Sequence record: PP400787
DNA from: Escherichia phage FL23
Direction: 5' to 3' (one strand)
Length of the DNA stretch: 64,000 bases
Each line of letters opens with the position of its first letter. Within the stretch, counting starts at the first letter, position 1. The notes beneath the pieces were generated by a model that ran no database searches, had not been told where the DNA came from, and was given only the letters and a program-made list of their open reading frames with translations. The position numbers and the translations under genes were made by a program. Below, piece by piece: positions 1,777 to 59,945 of the stretch.

Positions 1777-2553
1777 TTATACTCTTGGACCATATATTGC
1801 TCCAACATTTATCCACGTTGGAGCAGACCCTATAACAGCATAACCAGCAGCGCCGCCATTATATTCAGATCCTTGACCGCGAATATTGCATCTACCTCCC
1901 GCGGAACCTACTTCACCACCGTTTCCGCCGTTATAGATACCATTCACGGATCCTGAGCCAGGTGCAGAAATAGTACCACCAGTCGCGCCTGATTGCATAT
2001 CAATAGATCCGCCTGGCGCACCAAAAGGACGACCGCCACCGCCGCCAAAGGTCAATCTCATTTGTGAAAAAGGAGAATAATATCCGCCGCCACCGCCGCC
2101 GCCACCGCCTGCAATAGCTCCACCATTATTAATTCTTAGTCTCCCACCAATATCGTTTTGAATACAATGACCTCCAGCTGAGCCAGGACTATTGCTACCG
2201 CCATTCCCGCCACGACCATACATCGTTACGCCGTGTATATTTAACTGAACATATTCATTCGGTGTATCTCCGTACATGAAGAATAAAGGAACATCTTTAG
2301 AATATGATACTAAATCTCCAGTGATATTAAACACTATAGGTGCACTACCTGCCTCAAAACATCTATCTCGGAACCATTGACCATTGAAGTTATGGTCTGC
2401 TCCAAGCGTGTGAATTACTTCAACAGATCGACCTATCATATTACTCATCCAAAATGGAATTCCCATTCTCAATCTCTGCGCGGCACCACCCATCCAAGGG
2501 TCTCCAGTTTGTACCCTCGCAGACCATCCTACCCACGGTCCTTCAACTGCCAT
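1777..2553 (-). CDS. 38: gp38 receptor-recognising adhesin, glycine-rich (T2/T6 type rather than the T4 assembly-chaperone type)
   Basis: Poly-Gly tracts ([23 protein letters not shown]) typical of gp38 adhesin glycine-rich motifs; start at second ATG (2553) preceded by GGAGG; ORF track start 2583 probably too far upstream. Confidence 0.8.
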
Positions 2554-2565
2554 ATAAACCTCCAA

Positions 2566-2579
2566 GGGGCCGAAGCCCC
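2566..2579 (-). other. GGGGCUUCGGCCCC tetraloop hairpin in the 37/38 intercistronic region, immediately 5' of the gene 38 SD
   Basis: Plus strand ggggccgaagcccc; 5-bp GC stem with UUCG loop on the minus-strand mRNA. Confidence 0.7.
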
Positions 2580-2584
2580 TCATT

Positions 2585-35091: not shown

Positions 35092-35095
35092 GTTG

Positions 35096-35126
35096 AGGAC
35101 TCCTTCGGGAGTCCTTTTTTATTTTC
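35096..35126 (+). terminator. rho-independent terminator (UUCG loop)
   Basis: aggactcc-ttcg-ggagtcct followed by ttttttatttt. Confidence 0.85.
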
Positions 35127-35201: not shown

Positions 35202-35534
35202 ATGAAAACGATTAATCTGAACGCTGCAGTTAAAACTAAATGCTTCAATGGTAAATATAATGAAACTATGTGGTTCTTAATGGCAGTTGAAGGTGATATT
35301 ATTGAAGTAGAAACAACAGAAGGTATGGGAACAGATTTCACCTTTACAATTCAAGTTCATAATTTCTTTACTGGTTGGATTTATGAATTGAATAAAGTAA
35401 TCGTTGGAAAAATTGAACAAAATGAATTAGGTGAATGGTATTATGTTACAGCTCGCCAACGTGCCGAACGCTTAATTGAGAAGATGAAAAAAGTTGGTAA
35501 ACTTGACATGCAGCATTGGAAAGTAGTAAAATAA
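35202..35534 (+). CDS. hypothetical protein (110 aa)
   Basis: ORF with AGGAGA SD. Confidence 0.5.
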   Translation: MKTINLNAAVKTKCFNGKYNETMWFLMAVEGDIIEVETTEGMGTDFTFTIQVHNFFTGWIYELNKVIVGKIEQNELGEWYYVTARQRAERLIEKMKKVGKLDMQHWKVVK

Positions 35535-36294: not shown

Positions 36295-36491
36295 TGAAAT
36301 TCTTTTTAGGTCAAACTGTTGAATTAAAGGGAGTTGGTATACCTGGATTAATTTCTAAGGTTCTACCTCCATTTAAATGGAGTGGTATTCAAATAAAAGA
36401 GGCTTATATTGTTTCCTGGGTAGATGGAAATGAAGACCTTCGTATGGGTGATGAATTATCTCCTATCTACGGATTAAAGGAATTAGTATGA
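36294..36491 (+). CDS. hypothetical protein (65 aa)
   Basis: ORF, coupled to neighbours. Confidence 0.45.
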   Translation: MKFFLGQTVELKGVGIPGLISKVLPPFKWSGIQIKEAYIVSWVDGNEDLRMGDELSPIYGLKELV

Positions 36492-36694
36492 ATATAATTA
36501 ATAAGATTTTTGGAATTCAGTACATTAAGGTCACATATAAAGTAACAGATAAAAATCCATATACTGATGAACGTGAAGAACCACGAGTTGAGTCTATTAT
36601 ATTAGAAAAGGACCCTAACTGGCCAGTTGAATTTCGTCTACCAAACTATGGTCATTGGGCTGATGTTGAAATTATAAGCATTGAAAATGTCTGA
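36488..36694 (+). CDS. hypothetical protein (68 aa)
   Basis: ORF, coupled to neighbours. Confidence 0.45.
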   Translation: MNIINKIFGIQYIKVTYKVTDKNPYTDEREEPRVESIILEKDPNWPVEFRLPNYGHWADVEIISIENV

Positions 36695-37145
36695 GTTAGA
36701 GATTAGAAGCAATTTTAGGTGGCCATCATGTGCATTAAGTAATTTCGCCCATTGGCCTTTCGTTATGGATGGTATTCAATTTGGAGGTCTTGAAGGATTC
36801 CTCCAAGGATGCAAGGTGAAAAATGTTGAACAACAACGTCGTATATTTGGGTTATCCGGGCTTGCCGCCCAACAAGCTGGAAGGTCTTATGCAAGAGCTC
36901 AGGACCGCGGAACCCTCTTCTGGCTTGGAGTTCCATTTTCAAGATACTCCCCAGCGTGGAAAGAATTATACACAAATGCATATTTTGAAGCAGCGATCCA
37001 AAACAGAGGCTTTCGCGATGCATTACAAGCCTCGAAAGGAAAAGTTTTGAAGCACAGCATGGCTAGTGGTCTAACAAAAGATGATACAATACTAACCGAA
37101 GCTGAATTTATTGATGTGTTAAACCTATTAAGAGACTCTCTATGA
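36687..37145 (+). CDS. NADAR / YbiA-like (DUF1768) domain protein
   Basis: ALSNFAHWPFVMDGIQFGGLEGFLQGCKV resembles the YbiA core (FSNFAAWPIKVDGKTW...SEHYFQAQKF); locally elevated GC. Confidence 0.65.
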   Translation: MSELEIRSNFRWPSCALSNFAHWPFVMDGIQFGGLEGFLQGCKVKNVEQQRRIFGLSGLAAQQAGRSYARAQDRGTLFWLGVPFSRYSPAWKELYTNAYFEAAIQNRGFRDALQASKGKVLKHSMASGLTKDDTILTEAEFIDVLNLLRDSL

Positions 37146-37978
37146 AGCCTACTATTTTAACTGATATTGATGGAGTATGTTTAAGCTGGCAATCAGGCCT
37201 TCCTTATTTTGCTCAGAAATATAATCTTCCGTTAGAACATATTTTAAAAATGATCCAAGATGAAAAATTTATTTCTCCAGGTAAACTCTTTAACTGCGAT
37301 GAAGAACTTGGTGTCAAGTTAATTGAAAAATACAATCGTTCAGATTTTATTCGTTACTTGTCTCCATATAAAGATGCTCTGTGTGTAATTAACAAATTAA
37401 AAGAAGATTATAATTTTGTTGCTGTTACAGCATTGGGTGATTCTATTGACGCTCTGCTGAATCGTCAATTTAATTTGAATGCTCTTTTTCCTGGTGCCTT
37501 CTCAGAAGTAATGATGTGTGGTCACGATTCTTCAAAAGAAGAGTTGTTCAAAAAGGCAAAAGAGAAATATAACGTAATTTGTTATATCGACGATCTCGCT
37601 CACCACTGTGATCATGCGAGTGAAATATTAAGTGTTCCTGTTTATTGGATGGCTCGAGGGGAGCGTGACAATATTCCAAAAACTGCTCAGCGAGTTTATA
37701 CATGGAATGATGTAGAGAATAAGCTTTTTTCGCCGAAGGAAAATAAAGAAAGTTTTGATCGTGAAAAAGCTATAAAAGATGCAATCGAGAAGATGATTAA
37801 AAACGATTCTTTTCCTTGGAACACTACCTGGAGAACTCCTGGATTTAATCCTTATAATCTATATCATCCATATCAGACGCATCCGTTTCAGACATGGAAC
37901 TATATTAAACCCGGTGGCATAGAGTATTTGTATAATAGACCTACTTGTGGTGATAATATTTTCCAAGGAGCATTTTAA
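37142..37978 (+). CDS. HAD-superfamily hydrolase-like protein with C-terminal extension (30.2-like)
   Basis: N-terminal LTDIDGV (HAD motif I DxDG); 278 aa. Confidence 0.5.
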   Translation: MKPTILTDIDGVCLSWQSGLPYFAQKYNLPLEHILKMIQDEKFISPGKLFNCDEELGVKLIEKYNRSDFIRYLSPYKDALCVINKLKEDYNFVAVTALGDSIDALLNRQFNLNALFPGAFSEVMMCGHDSSKEELFKKAKEKYNVICYIDDLAHHCDHASEILSVPVYWMARGERDNIPKTAQRVYTWNDVENKLFSPKENKESFDREKAIKDAIEKMIKNDSFPWNTTWRTPGFNPYNLYHPYQTHPFQTWNYIKPGGIEYLYNRPTCGDNIFQGAF

Positions 37979-38247
37979 TGTTTGTTGTTCACACTATTTA
38001 TGAAAATGAAGGTAATACTACACGTGATTACGGTCACGTAAATCAATTTTTTAGATGCAATCCAGAATTCCGAGCTCAAAAAGACGAACGAATTTTTAAA
38101 AAATGCGTAGAGCAAGGTTTCATTTATATCAAGCACTGGATGCAAGGAAATAAAGTTAGAACCACATATCATAAGTCTTTGACTGAGCTTAATGATGAAT
38201 TGATTTATAATAGAGCTGTAAACCAAACTCTGAAGGATGAACAATGA
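37978..38247 (+). CDS. hypothetical protein (89 aa)
   Basis: ORF, ATGA-type coupling. Confidence 0.45.
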   Translation: MFVVHTIYENEGNTTRDYGHVNQFFRCNPEFRAQKDERIFKKCVEQGFIYIKHWMQGNKVRTTYHKSLTELNDELIYNRAVNQTLKDEQ

Positions 38248-39707
38248 TTCTTAAAATTCTGAACGAAATAGCATCTATTGGTTCAACTAAGCAGAAGCAA
38301 GCAATTCTTGAAAAGAATAAAGATAATGAATTGCTTAAACGAGTATATCGTCTGACTTATTCTCGTGGGCTGCAGTATTATATCAAGAAATGGCCTAAAC
38401 CTGGTATTGCTACCCAGAGTTTTGGAATGTTGACTCTTACCGATATGCTTGACTTCATTGAATTCACATTAGCTACTCGGAAATTGACTGGAAATGCAGC
38501 AATTGAGGAATTAACTGGATATATCACCGATGGTAAAAAAGATGATGTTGAAGTTTTGCGTCGAGTGATGATGCGAGACCTTGAATGTGGTGCTTCAGTA
38601 TCTATTGCAAACAAAGTTTGGCCAGGTTTAATTCCTGAACAACCTCAAATGCTTGCAAGTTCTTATGATGAAAAAGGCATTAATAGGAATATCAAATTTC
38701 CAGCTTTTGCCCAGTTAAAAGCTGATGGAGCTCGGTGCTTTGCCGAAGTCAGAGGTGATGAATTAGATGATGTTCGTCTTTTATCACGAGCCGGTAATGA
38801 ATATCTAGGATTAGATCTTCTTAAGGAAGAATTAATCAAAATGACCGCTGAAGCTCGCCAGATTCATCCAGAAGGTGTGTTAATTGATGGCGAATTGGTA
38901 TACCATGAGCAAGTTAAAAAGGAGCCAGAAGGCCTAGATTTTCTTTTTGATGCTCATCCTGAAAACAGTAAAGTTAAAGACTTCACAGAAGTAGCTGAAT
39001 CACGTACTGCTTCTAATGGAATCGCTAATAAATCTTTAAAGGGAACCATTTCCGAAAAAGAAGCACAATGCATGAAGTTTCAGGTCTGGGATTATGTACC
39101 GTTGGTAGAAATATACGGTCTTCCTGCATTTCGTTTGAAATATGATGTACGTTTTTCTAAACTAGAACAAATGACATCTGGATATGATAAAGTAATTTTA
39201 ATTGAAAACCAGGTAGTAAATAACCTAGATGAAGCTAAGGTAATTTATAAAAAGTATATTGACCAAGGTCTTGAAGGTATTATTCTCAAAAATATCGATG
39301 GATTATGGGAAAATGCTCGTTCAAAAAATCTCTATAAATTTAAAGAAGTAATTGATGTTGATTTAAAAATTGTAGGAATTTATCCTCACCGTAAAGACCC
39401 TACTAAAGCAGGTGGATTTATTCTTGAGTCAGAGTGTGGAAAAATTAAAGTAAATGCTGGTTCAGGCTTAAAAGATAAAGCCGGTGTAAAATCACATGAA
39501 CTTGACCGTACTCGCATTATGGAAAACCAAAATTATTATATTGGAAAAATTCTAGAGTGCGAATGCAACGGTTGGTTAAAATCTGATGGCCGCACTGATT
39601 ACGTTAAATTATTTCTTCCGATTGCGATTCGTTTACGTGAAGATAAAACTAAAGCTAATACATTCGAAGATGTATTTGGTGATTTTCATGAGGTAACTGG
39701 TTTATGA
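38244..39707 (+). CDS. 30: ATP-dependent DNA ligase
   Basis: 487 aa; MILKILNEIASIGSTKQKQAILEKN; KADG adenylation motif. Confidence 0.9.
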   Translation: MILKILNEIASIGSTKQKQAILEKNKDNELLKRVYRLTYSRGLQYYIKKWPKPGIATQSFGMLTLTDMLDFIEFTLATRKLTGNAAIEELTGYITDGKKDDVEVLRRVMMRDLECGASVSIANKVWPGLIPEQPQMLASSYDEKGINRNIKFPAFAQLKADGARCFAEVRGDELDDVRLLSRAGNEYLGLDLLKEELIKMTAEARQIHPEGVLIDGELVYHEQVKKEPEGLDFLFDAHPENSKVKDFTEVAESRTASNGIANKSLKGTISEKEAQCMKFQVWDYVPLVEIYGLPAFRLKYDVRFSKLEQMTSGYDKVILIENQVVNNLDEAKVIYKKYIDQGLEGIILKNIDGLWENARSKNLYKFKEVIDVDLKIVGIYPHRKDPTKAGGFILESECGKIKVNAGSGLKDKAGVKSHELDRTRIMENQNYYIGKILECECNGWLKSDGRTDYVKLFLPIAIRLREDKTKANTFEDVFGDFHEVTGL

Positions 39708-39941: not shown

Positions 39942-42032
39942 ATGATGGAACTAATTACAGAATTATTTGACGAAGATACTACTCTTCCGATTACAAACTT
40001 AAATCCAAAGAAGAAAATACCACAAATTTTTTCAGTTCATGTTGATGATGCAATTGAACAACCAGGCTTTCGTTTATGTACCTATACATCTGGAGGTGAT
40101 ACTAATCGCGATTTAAAGATGGGCGATAAAATGATGCATATTGTTCCTTTTACATTAACTGCTAAAGGTTCAATTGCCAAATTAAAAGGTCTTGGTCCAA
40201 GCCCAATTAATTATATCAATTCAGTTTTTACTGTTGCAATGCAAACAATGCGTCAGTATAAAATTGATGCCTGCATGCTTCGTATTCTTAAGTCTAAAAC
40301 CGCTGGTCAAGCTCGACAAATTCAAGTTATTGCTGATAGACTTATCCGTAGTCGTTCAGGGGGCAGATACGTCCTTCTTAAGGAACTCTGGGATTATGAT
40401 AAAAAGTACGCATATATTCTTATACATCGCAAAAATGTATCACTGGAAGACATTCCGGGAGTTCCGGAAATTAGTACCGAGCTCTTTACTAAAGTTGAAT
40501 CGAAGGTCGGTGATGTTTATATCAATAAAGATACTGGAGCTCAAGTAACTAAAAATGAGGCAATTGCAGCATCTATTGCGCAAGAAAATGATAAACGTTC
40601 TGATCAAGCTGTAATCGTTAAAGTTAAAATTTCCCGTAGAGCAATTGCACAAAGCCAGTCATTGGAATCTTCTAGATTTGAAAGTGAATTATTCCAGAAG
40701 TATGAATCTACCGCAGCTAATTTCAATAAACCTGCTACCGCTCCTTTAATTCCCGAAGCAGAAGAAATGAAGCTTGGAATTAATTCATTAGCTTCTAAAA
40801 CTAAGGCAGCAAAAATTATTGCCGAAGGAACTGCGAATGAACTTCACTATGACTATAAATTCTTTTCAAAAAGTGAGGTTGATGAAGTTTCTGAAAAAAT
40901 TAAAGATGTAATTCTTAATGCGATTAAAAATGAACCAACTACTTCAATAAAATGTTTAGAGAAATACGCAGCAGCTGTTAATCAACTCTTTGAAGAATAT
41001 AAAGATAATTGGCTTGATAAACATAATAAAACTCGTAAAGGGCAGACAGATGAAGTCTGGGGAGAAATAACTAAAAATGCCTGGAATGCAGCAAAAACTA
41101 AATTCCTCAAACGAATGATTTATAGTTTTTCTGGAATTGGTGCAGGCCCAATGATTGATATTACTATTGCCCGTGATGGTTCTAAATATACTCCATCGCA
41201 AAAGCGCGGTATTAGAGAGTATTGTGGTTCAGGATATACAGACATTAATAATCTTCTTTTAGGTCGTTACAATCCAGAACGATATGATGTAATGAGTGAA
41301 AAAGAAATTGAATCTGCTATAAATAATTTAGATTCAGCTTTTGAAAATGGTGACCGCATACCGGAAGGCATTACAGTTTATCGTGCTCAAAGTATGACTG
41401 CTCCTATATACGAAGCACTAGTTAAAAATAAAGTGTTCTATTTCAGAAATTTTGTATCTACTTCTTTAACTCCTATCATTTTTGGACGTTTTGGAATTAC
41501 ACATGCTGGTATTGGTCTTTTAGAACCAGAAGCTCGTAATGAATTAACAGTTGATAAAAATGAAGAAGGAATAACTATTAATCCAAACGAAATAAGAGCG
41601 TATAAAGAAAATCCTGAATACGTTAAAGTTCAAATAGGATGGGCAATTGATGGAGCTCATAAAGTTAATGTTGTATATCCAGGAAGTCTCGGAATAGCAA
41701 CAGAAGCTGAAGTTATTCTACCGCGCGGACTGATGGTCAAAGTTAATAAAATAACTGATGCTTCTAATAATGACGGAACAACATCTAACAATACAAAACT
41801 CATTCAAGCTGAAGTTATGACCACAGAAGAACTCACCGAATCGGTAATCTATGACGGAGACCATTTAATGGAAACTGGTGAATTGGTTACAATGACAGGT
41901 GATATAGAAGATAGAGTTGACTTTGCATCATTTGTTTCATCAAATGTTAAACAGAAAGTAGAATCATCTCTTGGAATTATTGCGTCTTGCATAGATATTA
42001 CAAACATGCCTTACAAGTTCGTTCAAGGATAA
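39942..42032 (+). CDS. alt: Alt, virion-packaged ADP-ribosyltransferase
   Basis: 696 aa; N-terminal MELITELFD capsid-targeting-like region; ART R-S-E motifs (YRAQ, FVSTSL); late promoter. Confidence 0.8.
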   Translation: MMELITELFDEDTTLPITNLNPKKKIPQIFSVHVDDAIEQPGFRLCTYTSGGDTNRDLKMGDKMMHIVPFTLTAKGSIAKLKGLGPSPINYINSVFTVAMQTMRQYKIDACMLRILKSKTAGQARQIQVIADRLIRSRSGGRYVLLKELWDYDKKYAYILIHRKNVSLEDIPGVPEISTELFTKVESKVGDVYINKDTGAQVTKNEAIAASIAQENDKRSDQAVIVKVKISRRAIAQSQSLESSRFESELFQKYESTAANFNKPATAPLIPEAEEMKLGINSLASKTKAAKIIAEGTANELHYDYKFFSKSEVDEVSEKIKDVILNAIKNEPTTSIKCLEKYAAAVNQLFEEYKDNWLDKHNKTRKGQTDEVWGEITKNAWNAAKTKFLKRMIYSFSGIGAGPMIDITIARDGSKYTPSQKRGIREYCGSGYTDINNLLLGRYNPERYDVMSEKEIESAINNLDSAFENGDRIPEGITVYRAQSMTAPIYEALVKNKVFYFRNFVSTSLTPIIFGRFGITHAGIGLLEPEARNELTVDKNEEGITINPNEIRAYKENPEYVKVQIGWAIDGAHKVNVVYPGSLGIATEAEVILPRGLMVKVNKITDASNNDGTTSNNTKLIQAEVMTTEELTESVIYDGDHLMETGELVTMTGDIEDRVDFASFVSSNVKQKVESSLGIIASCIDITNMPYKFVQG

Positions 42033-58379: not shown

Positions 58380-59945
58380 TTAGATACCTTTAACATATAC
58401 ACGTCTAAAGTAAGCGTTCTTACCAAGGCTATTCAGAATAGAAGGCATACCGCTCTGGATGCGAGAAGCCGGAGCCTGAGCAGCGGATTCTGCAAATGGG
58501 TTGATACCGATACCGTAACGAGTTTTGAATCCCATTACCGGTTGGAAGTTCTTCGGATCGGAACCACGCAGCGGAGTCAGAGCTACATATGGAGCATAGT
58601 AAATACCAGCATCCATTTCGTTAGGACCTTTATAACCTACAGTGAAATAATCCTGTTTAGCATACTGGTCGATATATACACGGTATTTACCACCCAGAAC
58701 ACCAGCAAATACTGACTTGGTAGTATCAGTGTTAAAGCCAGTAGCCAGACCTTGTGCAGCATAAGAAATGCCGGTATCAACTGAAGCCAGAACGTTAACT
58801 ACGTTACGGGAAGCGATAATGAAGTTACCTTCGCCGCGACCAGTCTGACGAGCAATTTCAACTGCTTCTTTGTCAATCTGGAACAACAGAGCTTTAAAGG
58901 ATTCACCTGCCCAGCGAGCACCACGAATATCGATTGGGTCCTGGAAGTCAAATACACCAGCTTTAGAACCCGGAGTCAGGGTCATACCAGATTTACCAAC
59001 CTGAGCGGAGTAGTTAATCCAATCAACAACTTCGCGGTTGATTTCCAGCATAATTTCGGTAGCCAGAATACCAGACAGTTCAGCATCAGCATCCATACCG
59101 TGAACAGCGCGAAGGTCTTGTGCTAATTCAATAGAGTAAGCAGCTTTCAGCTGACGAGATTTAGCTTCGATAACTTGCTTATCGATACGGAAGCCCATTT
59201 CATTCCATGGGTTATCGGTAGAACCATTGAAACCTTCCTGGAGTTCAGCGATAGAAGTAGCCATACCTTCAGCGATTTCTACCAGTACACCAGCTTCCAT
59301 TTGTTTCTTAATTTCAGCATCTAATTTAGCTGCGTCAGATGCACTAGTATCAATTTGCTTAACTTCTGTAGCTTGCAGATATACAGTACCAGTGTCCTGG
59401 AAGAAGTGGGTGTAAATAGTTCCAACTTCAAGAGTATCACTTGCTTTCAAAGCAGCGAATTTCTTAGCAGCACCCTGACCAGAGAACATTGCATCTGGAC
59501 CATACATTGGGTGGAATGCTTCTTTAGCACCGGCAGCGATCGGATCTTTACCATATACCGCGCGGAGTGCGAATACCTGACCGGTTGGGCTGTTCATCGG
59601 CTGAACACCACAAATATCGAAAGCAATCAGGTTAGGAATAGCACGACGTACCATACCCATAACAGCCGGGCCAATCTGGGTTACTGCGCCAGAAGTCTGA
59701 CCTGCAGCGATGTTGGTAGCATTGTAACCGTGGTCACCACCAATTTCAGCTTCTGTTAAGAAAGAACCGAATGCCTGAGCAATTTTTTCGTCTTTATATT
59801 CCGGAGCTGTCTGGAAATCTTTTTCCTGGTTTTCAAAGATTTTAGCGATAATCGCTTGTTTGCTATTAGCAATTTCCGGTAAACCTTCACCTTCCAGTAA
59901 TGGCTTCCATTTGTTCAAAAGTTCAGCTTTAGTTTTGATAGTCAT
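58380..59945 (-). CDS. 23: gp23 major capsid protein
   Basis: 521 aa; MTIKTKAELLNKWKPLLEGEG... Confidence 0.95.
   Translation of the reverse strand: MTIKTKAELLNKWKPLLEGEGLPEIANSKQAIIAKIFENQEKDFQTAPEYKDEKIAQAFGSFLTEAEIGGDHGYNATNIAAGQTSGAVTQIGPAVMGMVRRAIPNLIAFDICGVQPMNSPTGQVFALRAVYGKDPIAAGAKEAFHPMYGPDAMFSGQGAAKKFAALKASDTLEVGTIYTHFFQDTGTVYLQATEVKQIDTSASDAAKLDAEIKKQMEAGVLVEIAEGMATSIAELQEGFNGSTDNPWNEMGFRIDKQVIEAKSRQLKAAYSIELAQDLRAVHGMDADAELSGILATEIMLEINREVVDWINYSAQVGKSGMTLTPGSKAGVFDFQDPIDIRGARWAGESFKALLFQIDKEAVEIARQTGRGEGNFIIASRNVVNVLASVDTGISYAAQGLATGFNTDTTKSVFAGVLGGKYRVYIDQYAKQDYFTVGYKGPNEMDAGIYYAPYVALTPLRGSDPKNFQPVMGFKTRYGIGINPFAESAAQAPASRIQSGMPSILNSLGKNAYFRRVYVKGI

What the first reader, a model, noticed from the sequence alone, without database searches (positions are those of the whole stretch)
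36687..37978. GC-rich NADAR (YbiA-like) ORF next to a HAD-like hydrolase: candidate ADP-ribose-processing or anti-DarT module
ORF 36687-37145 has the YbiA/NADAR core (ALSNFAHWPFVMDGIQFGGLEGFLQGCKV versus E. coli YbiA FSNFAAWPIKVDGKTW...SEHYFQAQKF) and is visibly more GC-rich than its neighbours, suggesting horizontal acquisition. NADAR enzymes have been reported to reverse guanine ADP-ribosylation of DNA by DarT-type toxins, so a phage copy could counter DarTG-type defence. The next ORF (37142-37978) begins with a HAD motif I (LTDIDGV), and the ADP-ribosyltransferase alt lies 3 kb downstream.
Basis: partly seen in the sequence, partly recalled or inferred. Interest (0 to 1): 0.7.

Follow-up and report, generated by a model that had tools for sequence, protein, structure and literature searches.

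The report
Known T4 anti-DarT enzyme AdfN (gp30.3)
The flagged gene is the T4-type phage gene 30.3, already shown by experiment to encode AdfN, which strips ADP-ribose off phage DNA to defeat the bacterial DarTG1 defence; the neighbouring HAD-type phosphatase gene is real but travels with the DNA ligase gene, not with AdfN.

Summary

The "module" part of the idea is not supported:
- Its homologues sit directly upstream of the DNA ligase gene in 61 of 61 loci.
- An AdfN homologue lies within 6 kb in only 28 of those 61 loci. Only 19 of 80 AdfN loci have a 30.2 homologue nearby.
- A published T4 transposon screen on DarTG1 depletes 30.3 (log2FC -7.25). It leaves 30.2 (-0.12) and alt (-0.01) unaffected.

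The GC excess is real but modest: 42.3% against 35.3%, z about 2.

The parts
36687..37145 (+). Gene 30.3 = adfN (anti-DarT factor NADAR), 152 aa, intact allele
36792..36794 (+). Codon GAA for catalytic Glu36
   Evidence: Read from the sequence. Invariant in 42 homologues. Aligns to YbiA E48. E36A abolishes AdfN function in T4.
36813..36815 (+). Codon AAG for catalytic Lys43
   Evidence: Read from the sequence. At least 90% conserved. Aligns to YbiA K55. K43A abolishes function in T4.
37053..37055 (+). Codon CAC for His123, the phage-NADAR substitute for the last-strand Glu/Asp
   Evidence: Invariant in 42 homologues. The literature states that phage NADARs (gp30.3 proteins) carry His where YbiA has Glu and DarT1-linked NADARs have Asp.
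37142..37978 (+). Gene 30.2: HAD-superfamily phosphatase (catalytic domain plus C1 cap in residues about 1-195), with a variable, largely disordered C-terminal tail. Not part of the AdfN mechanism.
36488..36694 (+). Gene 30.4 (68 aa); its stop overlaps the adfN start by 8 nt
   Evidence: It is the second significant hit in the T4 DarTG1 transposon screen (log2FC -1.79, adjusted p 0.014), most simply explained as a polar effect on 30.3.
38244..39707 (+). Gene 30, ATP-dependent DNA ligase: the conserved downstream partner of gene 30.2
   Evidence: T4 annotation. A ligase homologue lies downstream of 30.2 in 61/61 loci, within 400 nt in 60/61.
39942..42032 (+). alt, packaged ADP-ribosyltransferase (context only)
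   Evidence: 71% identical to T4 Alt. The ends are near-identical and the centre is diverged. No fitness effect under DarTG1 in T4.

Best explanation
ORF 36687-37145 is an intact orthologue of T4 gene 30.3/adfN. It encodes a stand-alone NADAR-fold DNA ADP-ribosylglycohydrolase.

Mechanism: when the phage infects a cell carrying DarTG1, the DarT1 toxin ADP-ribosylates guanines in phage DNA and blocks replication. AdfN, made with the early and middle genes, hydrolyses the guanine-ADP-ribose N-glycosidic bond using Glu36, Lys43 and His123. This restores the DNA and allows replication. It acts alone; it does not bind DarT1 and needs neither gene 30.2 nor alt.

What is shown here: identity to T4 AdfN, intactness, conservation of the catalytic residues, and the NADAR fold. 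What is shown in the literature for T4: the enzymatic activity and the anti-DarTG1 phenotype. What is inferred: transfer of that function to this phage, at 98% identity.

The adjacent gene 30.2 is a separate HAD phosphatase. It is most probably a nucleotide (dNMP-type) phosphatase, its gene order is tied to the DNA ligase gene, and its physiological substrate is unknown.
For: - Identity: PF08010 at 1.7e-69. 149/152 residues identical to T4 gp30.3, full length, so without the RB69-type truncation.
- Conserved residues: S18, N19, F20, E36, G37, F38, Q40, H123, T134, T137 and R149 are invariant in 42 homologues; K43 is at least 90% conserved.
- Sequence link to NADAR: the family profile hits YbiA at E=0.003 with E36 and K43 on YbiA E48 and K55. 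18/42 family members hit PF08719, best 1.5e-7.
- Literature on T4 AdfN: deletion sensitises T4 and T2 by about 4 logs. Ectopic AdfN rescues RB69. E36A and K43A are dead. Purified protein removes ADP-ribose from DNA. A two-hybrid assay shows no DarT1 binding. In vitro activity is reported independently.
- Independent transposon screen: 30.3 has log2FC -7.25 with adjusted p 0 under DarTG1.
- Stand-alone nature: no neighbour is conserved across 66 distant AdfN loci.
Against: - The window protein itself gives no PF08719 hit at E<=1, no PDB sequence hit by phmmer and no PADLOC or NCBIfam hit. Assignment to NADAR therefore rests on fold, transitive profile hits and the literature.
- No experiment exists for this particular phage. 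It differs from T4 AdfN at Q22H, K107R and I125M. All three are variable positions, and M125 is the family consensus.
- AdfN does not rescue uninfected E. coli from DarT1, so an unidentified phage-specific requirement remains. This could be hydroxymethylated DNA or a cofactor.
Confidence: 0.93

Rival explanations
1. The NADAR, the HAD hydrolase and possibly alt form one functional ADP-ribose-processing or anti-DarT module. For example, the HAD enzyme might dispose of the released ADP-ribose or a phosphorylated derivative.
For: The two ORFs overlap in ATGA and are co-directional. They are adjacent in all close T4 relatives. The HAD enzyme has a small-molecule type C1 cap. alt lies 2.8 kb downstream.
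Against: - Only 19/80 AdfN loci have a 30.2 homologue within 6 kb.
- Only 28/61 30.2 loci have AdfN within 6 kb, whereas 61/61 have the ligase gene directly downstream.
- At least nine genome-sized contigs carry both genes more than 50 kb apart (coordinates).
- In T4, insertions in 30.2 (log2FC -0.12) and alt (-0.01) are neutral under DarTG1.
- Purified AdfN works alone in vitro.
Confidence: 0.05
2. The NADAR acts mainly on soluble substrates rather than on DNA. Candidates are ADP-ribose-derived immune signals or reactive riboflavin intermediates, as for YbiA.
Against: T4 AdfN removes ADP-ribose from DNA in vitro. Its loss gives a specific 4-log DarTG1 phenotype. The last-strand residue is His rather than the YbiA-type Glu.
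Confidence: 0.05
3. The raised GC content marks a recent horizontal acquisition of the gene by this phage lineage.
For: The ORF is 42.3% GC against an ORF mean of 35.3% (z 1.95), and GC3 is also raised. Published phylogeny places AdfN nearest to bacterial DarG1-type NADARs, which suggests co-option from bacteria at some time.
Against: - The gene is at the same position in hundreds of Tequatrovirus and related records (loci L002-L013).
- AdfN genes are about 41.6% GC in 80 loci regardless of flank GC. The difference from flanks is only +1.0 point in 66 distant loci.
- Two other ORFs in the window are more GC-rich.
Confidence: 0.1

Closest known systems
T4 AdfN (gp30.3), anti-DarT factor NADAR (Johannesman, Carlson & LeRoux, PMC11257639)
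   Same: Same gene at the same map position (30.4 - 30.3 - 30.2 - 30.1 - 30 - alt.1 - alt). 98% identical, same length, with E36, K43, H123 and the C-terminal helix all present.
   Different: Three conservative or variable-site substitutions: Q22H, K107R, I125M. No experiment has been done on this phage.
DarG1 / DarT1-associated NADAR antitoxins (E. coli C7, Geobacter lovleyi 8bat)
   Different: AdfN has no N-terminal extension. It has His instead of Asp in the last strand. It is not encoded next to a DarT. It cannot neutralise DarT1 in uninfected cells.
E. coli YbiA (2b3w) and Phytophthora NADAR (8bau), PF08719
   Different: Only 19-21% identity. The window protein does not reach PF08719 at E<=1. 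The C-terminal D..WG motif of YbiA is absent. YbiA has a housekeeping role in riboflavin metabolism.
5'(3')-deoxyribonucleotidases, NT5C family (2jao, 6g2n, 3bwv) - for gene 30.2
   Different: At most 21% identity. The window protein has no Pfam hit. It carries an extra variable tail of about 80 residues. No activity data exist and no paper in the library mentions gp30.2.

Membership tests
NADAR superfamily (YbiA-like fold, PF08719) | Alpha+beta NADAR fold | tested here: met
NADAR superfamily (YbiA-like fold, PF08719) | N-terminal SNF motif followed by the catalytic Glu and Lys (E..FQ..K) | tested here: met
   S18, N19, F20, E36, G37, F38 and Q40 are invariant and K43 is at least 90% conserved. 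They align to YbiA S30 N31 F32 ... E48 ... K55.
NADAR superfamily (YbiA-like fold, PF08719) | Charged or catalytic residue in the last strand (Glu in YbiA, Asp in BC4488/DarG1, His in phage NADARs) | tested here: met
   H123 is invariant in 42 homologues. The rule is stated in PMC11125620 and PMC11543638.
NADAR superfamily (YbiA-like fold, PF08719) | Significant match of the protein itself to the PF08719 HMM | tested here: not met
   No PF08719 hit at E<=1 for the window protein. However, 18/42 family members hit it, best 1.5e-7.
NADAR superfamily (YbiA-like fold, PF08719) | Hydrolysis of guanine-ADP-ribose | not testable with these tools
   Shown for the 98%-identical T4 protein in vitro.
AdfN / Phage_30_3 (PF08010) | Match above the PF08010 gathering score | tested here: met
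   232.4 bits against a cut-off of 36, E=1.7e-69.
AdfN / Phage_30_3 (PF08010) | Full-length allele with the C-terminal helix, unlike the non-functional RB69 frameshift allele | tested here: met
   152 aa, aligned end to end with T4. Helix 138-151 is present in the model. The RB69 defect is described.
AdfN / Phage_30_3 (PF08010) | Confers resistance to DarTG1 | not testable with these tools
   Shown for T4 and T2 and in the T4 transposon screen.
HAD superfamily phosphatases (gene 30.2) | Rossmannoid HAD core fold | tested here: met
HAD superfamily phosphatases (gene 30.2) | Catalytic motifs I (DxD), II (S/T), III (K) and IV (DD) | tested here: met
   D8, D10, G11 and K132 are invariant; T96, D150 and D151 are at least 90% conserved in 39 homologues.
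HAD superfamily phosphatases (gene 30.2) | Match to a Pfam HAD model | tested here: not met
   The window protein has no Pfam hit at E<=1. Homologues hit weakly: PF00702 12/39 (best 3.5e-4), PF06941 7/39, PF13419 6/39.
NT5C 5'(3')-deoxyribonucleotidases (gene 30.2) | Sequence or profile membership and nucleotidase activity | tested here: inconclusive
   Profile hit to 2jao at E=0.014, covering only motif I through motif II. PF06941 is hit by 7/39 members, best E-value 1.2e-4. Activity was not tested.
   19/80 and 28/61 loci, against 61/61 for 30.2 with the ligase gene.
   Read from a published supplementary table rather than computed here. T4 Data S6 gives 30.2 log2FC -0.12 (adjusted p 1) against 30.3 -7.25 (adjusted p 0).

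The most novel reading that the evidence does not exclude
The unstudied gene 30.2 may encode a capped HAD phosphatase that is a functional partner of the T4-type DNA ligase. Its homologues lie directly upstream of the ligase gene in 61/61 loci, over 42-98% identity and several host genera, while the genes further upstream vary. It could be a nucleotide or DNA-end phosphatase serving nick repair or nucleotide economy.

A second, weaker reading concerns gp30.4, the other significant hit in the T4 DarTG1 screen. It might be a phage cofactor that explains why AdfN works only during T-even infection, rather than showing a polar effect.
Probability: 0.2. Interest if true: 0.45.

Novelty: already known. 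Interest (0 to 1): 0.12.

Why it matters
But gp30.3/AdfN has been identified bioinformatically, assayed in vitro, characterised genetically and confirmed by transposon sequencing, so this locus adds only another near-identical allele. The one piece not in the literature searched is that the adjacent HAD phosphatase gene 30.2 tracks the DNA ligase gene rather than the NADAR. This corrects the proposed "module" and points to an untested ligase-linked function.

Tried and rejected
- Direct hmmscan of the ORF against Pfam found PF08010 but not PF08719.
- phmmer of both proteins against PDB sequences gave only chance hits.
- NCBIfam and PADLOC gave nothing for either protein.
- PHROGs placed both proteins in families of unknown function. 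gp30.2 had a weak hit to a polynucleotide kinase phrog (E=0.0025), which I did not pursue beyond noting that T4 Pnk also has a HAD phosphatase domain.
- The promoter and terminator scan gave no more sites than shuffled sequence: 33 found against 34.1 expected. I did not use it to define a transcription unit.
- A literature search for gp30.2 found no paper.
- Clustering the neighbours of AdfN in 80 loci found no neighbour conserved among distant loci.
- I tested whether the GC excess signals recent transfer and rejected it.
- I tested the T4-annotated internal out-of-frame ORF 30.3'. It stays open among close relatives but its ATG is often lost.
- The third homologous-protein search, the representative-library search and the third fold search were not used, because the question was settled.

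Full report
**What the window is.** A 3-kb stretch around the finding is 100% identical to Escherichia phage FL44. It is 97-98% identical to many Tequatrovirus genomes: 669 phage records match, and 490 cover at least 80% of the query. The T4 reference annotation gives the local gene order as 31, rIII, 30.9 ... 30.4, 30.3, 30.2, 30.1, 30 (DNA ligase), alt.1, alt. The window's ORFs reproduce this order on the + strand.

**Checking the observation.**
- ORF 36687-37145 (ATG start, 152 aa) and ORF 37142-37978 (278 aa) are as described. They overlap in the sequence ATGA. The upstream gene 30.4 overlaps the start of 30.3 by 8 nt.
- The quoted peptide is residues 16-44.
- The ORF is 42.3% GC. The mean over 88 ORFs in the window is 35.3% (sd 3.6), which gives z=1.95. 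It is the third highest ORF and lies at the 94.5th percentile of 459-bp windows. GC3 is 32.7% against 24.8%. The "visibly more GC-rich" remark is therefore true but moderate.
- alt begins 2.8 kb downstream.

**What ORF 36687-37145 is.**
- It matches Pfam PF08010 (Phage_30_3) at E=1.7e-69. It does not match PF08719 (NADAR), even at E<=1.
- It is 149/152 identical to T4 gp30.3 over its full length.
- In an alignment of 42 homologues down to 35% identity, S18, N19, F20, E36, G37, F38, Q40, H123, T134, T137 and R149 are invariant. K43 is at least 90% conserved.
- An AlphaFold2 model built on that alignment has mean pLDDT 93.9.
- At sequence level the family profile finds YbiA at E=0.003, placing E36 and K43 on YbiA E48 and K55.
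- 18 of the 42 family members reach PF08719 on their own, best 1.5e-7.
Fold evidence and transitive profile evidence overturn that result.

**What is already known.**
- Schuller et al. 2023 established that NADARs reverse guanine ADP-ribosylation. They noted that phage NADARs carry His where YbiA has the catalytic Glu and DarT1-linked NADARs have Asp.
- A 2024 study named these phage NADARs gp30.3 proteins. It showed that the T4 protein hydrolyses guanine-ADP-ribose in vitro but does not protect uninfected cells from DarT1.
- Johannesman, Carlson and LeRoux mapped DarTG1 resistance of T-even phages to gene 30.3 by phage crosses and renamed it adfN. Their results:
  - Deletion sensitises T4 and T2 by about four logs.
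  - Ectopic AdfN rescues RB69.
  - E36A and K43A are inactive.
  - Purified AdfN removes ADP-ribose from DNA.
  - AdfN does not bind DarT1.
  - RB69 is sensitive because a frameshift removes the last 15 residues.
- An independent transposon screen of T4 (HIDEN-SEQ) found 30.3 depleted under DarTG1, with log2FC -7.25 and adjusted p 0.
- The copy in this window is full length and keeps E36, K43, H123 and the C-terminal helix. It is therefore an intact adfN allele. Transfer of function rests on 98% identity and is an inference; no experiment exists for this phage.

**The HAD neighbour (gene 30.2).**
- The protein has no Pfam, NCBIfam or PDB sequence hit on its own.
- In 39 homologues, D8, D10 and G11 (motif I) and K132 (motif III) are invariant. 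T96 (motif II) and D150-D151 (motif IV) are at least 90% conserved.
- The model is confident over residues 1-190 and disordered after about residue 228.
- Helices between motif I and motif II (residues 16-86) form a C1-type cap. By established knowledge of the HAD superfamily, this usually goes with small-molecule substrates.
- The family profile's only meaningful PDB sequence hit is 5'(3')-deoxyribonucleotidase 2jao (E=0.014). That alignment includes DGVL..W.SGL against DGVLADFESGL.
- 7/39 members weakly hit PF06941 (NT5C).
- From my recollection of the mitochondrial deoxyribonucleotidase structure (not tested here), the invariant W16 falls at the position of the Phe that stacks on the base.
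- My best inference is a nucleotide monophosphatase of unknown physiological substrate.
- T4 30.2 is non-essential on K-12, with 72/72 sites hit.
- No paper in the library mentions gp30.2.

**Is it a module?** Three lines of evidence say no.
- From the AdfN side: I fetched 80 AdfN-family loci from viral contigs and searched them with profiles of both families. Only 19 have a 30.2 homologue within 6 kb. Most of those are close T4 relatives.
- From the 30.2 side: in 61 loci, a DNA ligase homologue lies downstream in 61/61, and within 400 nt in 60/61. At most the small gene 30.1 sits between them. AdfN is within 6 kb in 28/61 loci and directly adjacent in 19/61.
- Within single genomes: at least nine genome-sized contigs carry both genes more than 50 kb apart (coordinates).
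- Clustering all same-strand neighbours of AdfN found no neighbour conserved among the 66 distant loci. This is consistent with AdfN being a stand-alone enzyme.
- Experimentally, the T4 DarTG1 screen lists only two significant genes, 30.3 and the upstream overlapping 30.4. Gene 30.2 (log2FC -0.12, adjusted p 1) and alt (-0.01) are neutral.
- The HAD gene therefore tracks the ligase gene, not the NADAR. The module idea is not supported.

**Horizontal acquisition.** AdfN genes average 41.6% GC in all 80 loci. They exceed their flanks by 3.5 points in the 14 close relatives and by only 1.0 point in the 66 distant loci. The excess here reflects a family-typical composition sitting in a low-GC genome, not a recent arrival. 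An ancient co-option from DarG1-like bacterial NADARs, as the published phylogeny suggests, remains plausible.

**Verdict.** The core interpretation is correct but already published and experimentally proven. The added claims (HAD and alt partnership, GC as a transfer signal) are not supported. Novelty: already known. The only new point is the strict 30.2-ligase synteny, which suggests an untested ligase-linked role for a conserved HAD phosphatase.

Noticed in passing
window 37142-37978 and 38244-39707; loci L082-L142: Homologues of the HAD phosphatase gene 30.2 lie immediately upstream of the DNA ligase gene in 61/61 viral loci (60/61 within 400 nt), across 42-98% identity. The genes further upstream vary. 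No paper in the library mentions gp30.2.
   Followed up: partly
window 36488-36694 (gene 30.4): In the published T4 DarTG1 transposon screen, 30.4 is the only significant gene besides 30.3 (log2FC -1.79, adjusted p 0.014). Its stop overlaps the adfN start by 8 nt, so polarity is the simplest explanation. A cofactor role is not excluded. Homologues were found only in close relatives (13 loci, none distant).
   Followed up: partly
window 36823-37050 (+), inside adfN in another frame: This 75-codon out-of-frame ORF is the one T4 annotates as 30.3'. The frame stays open in most relatives at 85% identity or more. However, the ATG is replaced in 7 of the 9 relatives examined, one relative has a stop, and the frame is not open to that length in any of the nine distant homologues checked (longest 66 codons). 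3.4% of codon shuffles give an equally long open frame.
   Followed up: yes
window 39942-42032 (alt): Alt is mosaic relative to T4. Residues 1-245 and about 590-696 are nearly identical to T4. The central part, which includes the region of the ADP-ribosyltransferase domain, is strongly diverged with indels. Overall identity is 71%. This suggests recombination with a different alt allele.
   Followed up: no
window 37742-37975 (C-terminal tail of gp30.2, residues about 200-278): The tail is variable, aromatic- and Pro-rich, predicted disordered, and absent from many homologues of about 200 aa. Many long homologues nevertheless share a short motif near the end (GIEYL.N.PTA). It might be a protein-interaction peptide.
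   Followed up: no
window 35095-35116 and 35503-35532 (+): A terminator-like hairpin (9-bp stem followed by a T run) lies after 30.9. A near-consensus sigma-70 site (TTGACA-18-TAAAAT, 11/12 matches) lies upstream of 30.7. Together they might bound the transcription unit containing 30.7 through 30. The number of promoter-like sites in the region does not exceed the shuffled expectation.
   Followed up: no
window 1777-2583 (-) and 58380-59945 (-): Two ORFs are more GC-rich than adfN (47.5% and 44.6% GC; z 3.4 and 2.6 relative to the window's ORFs). I did not examine them.
   Followed up: no
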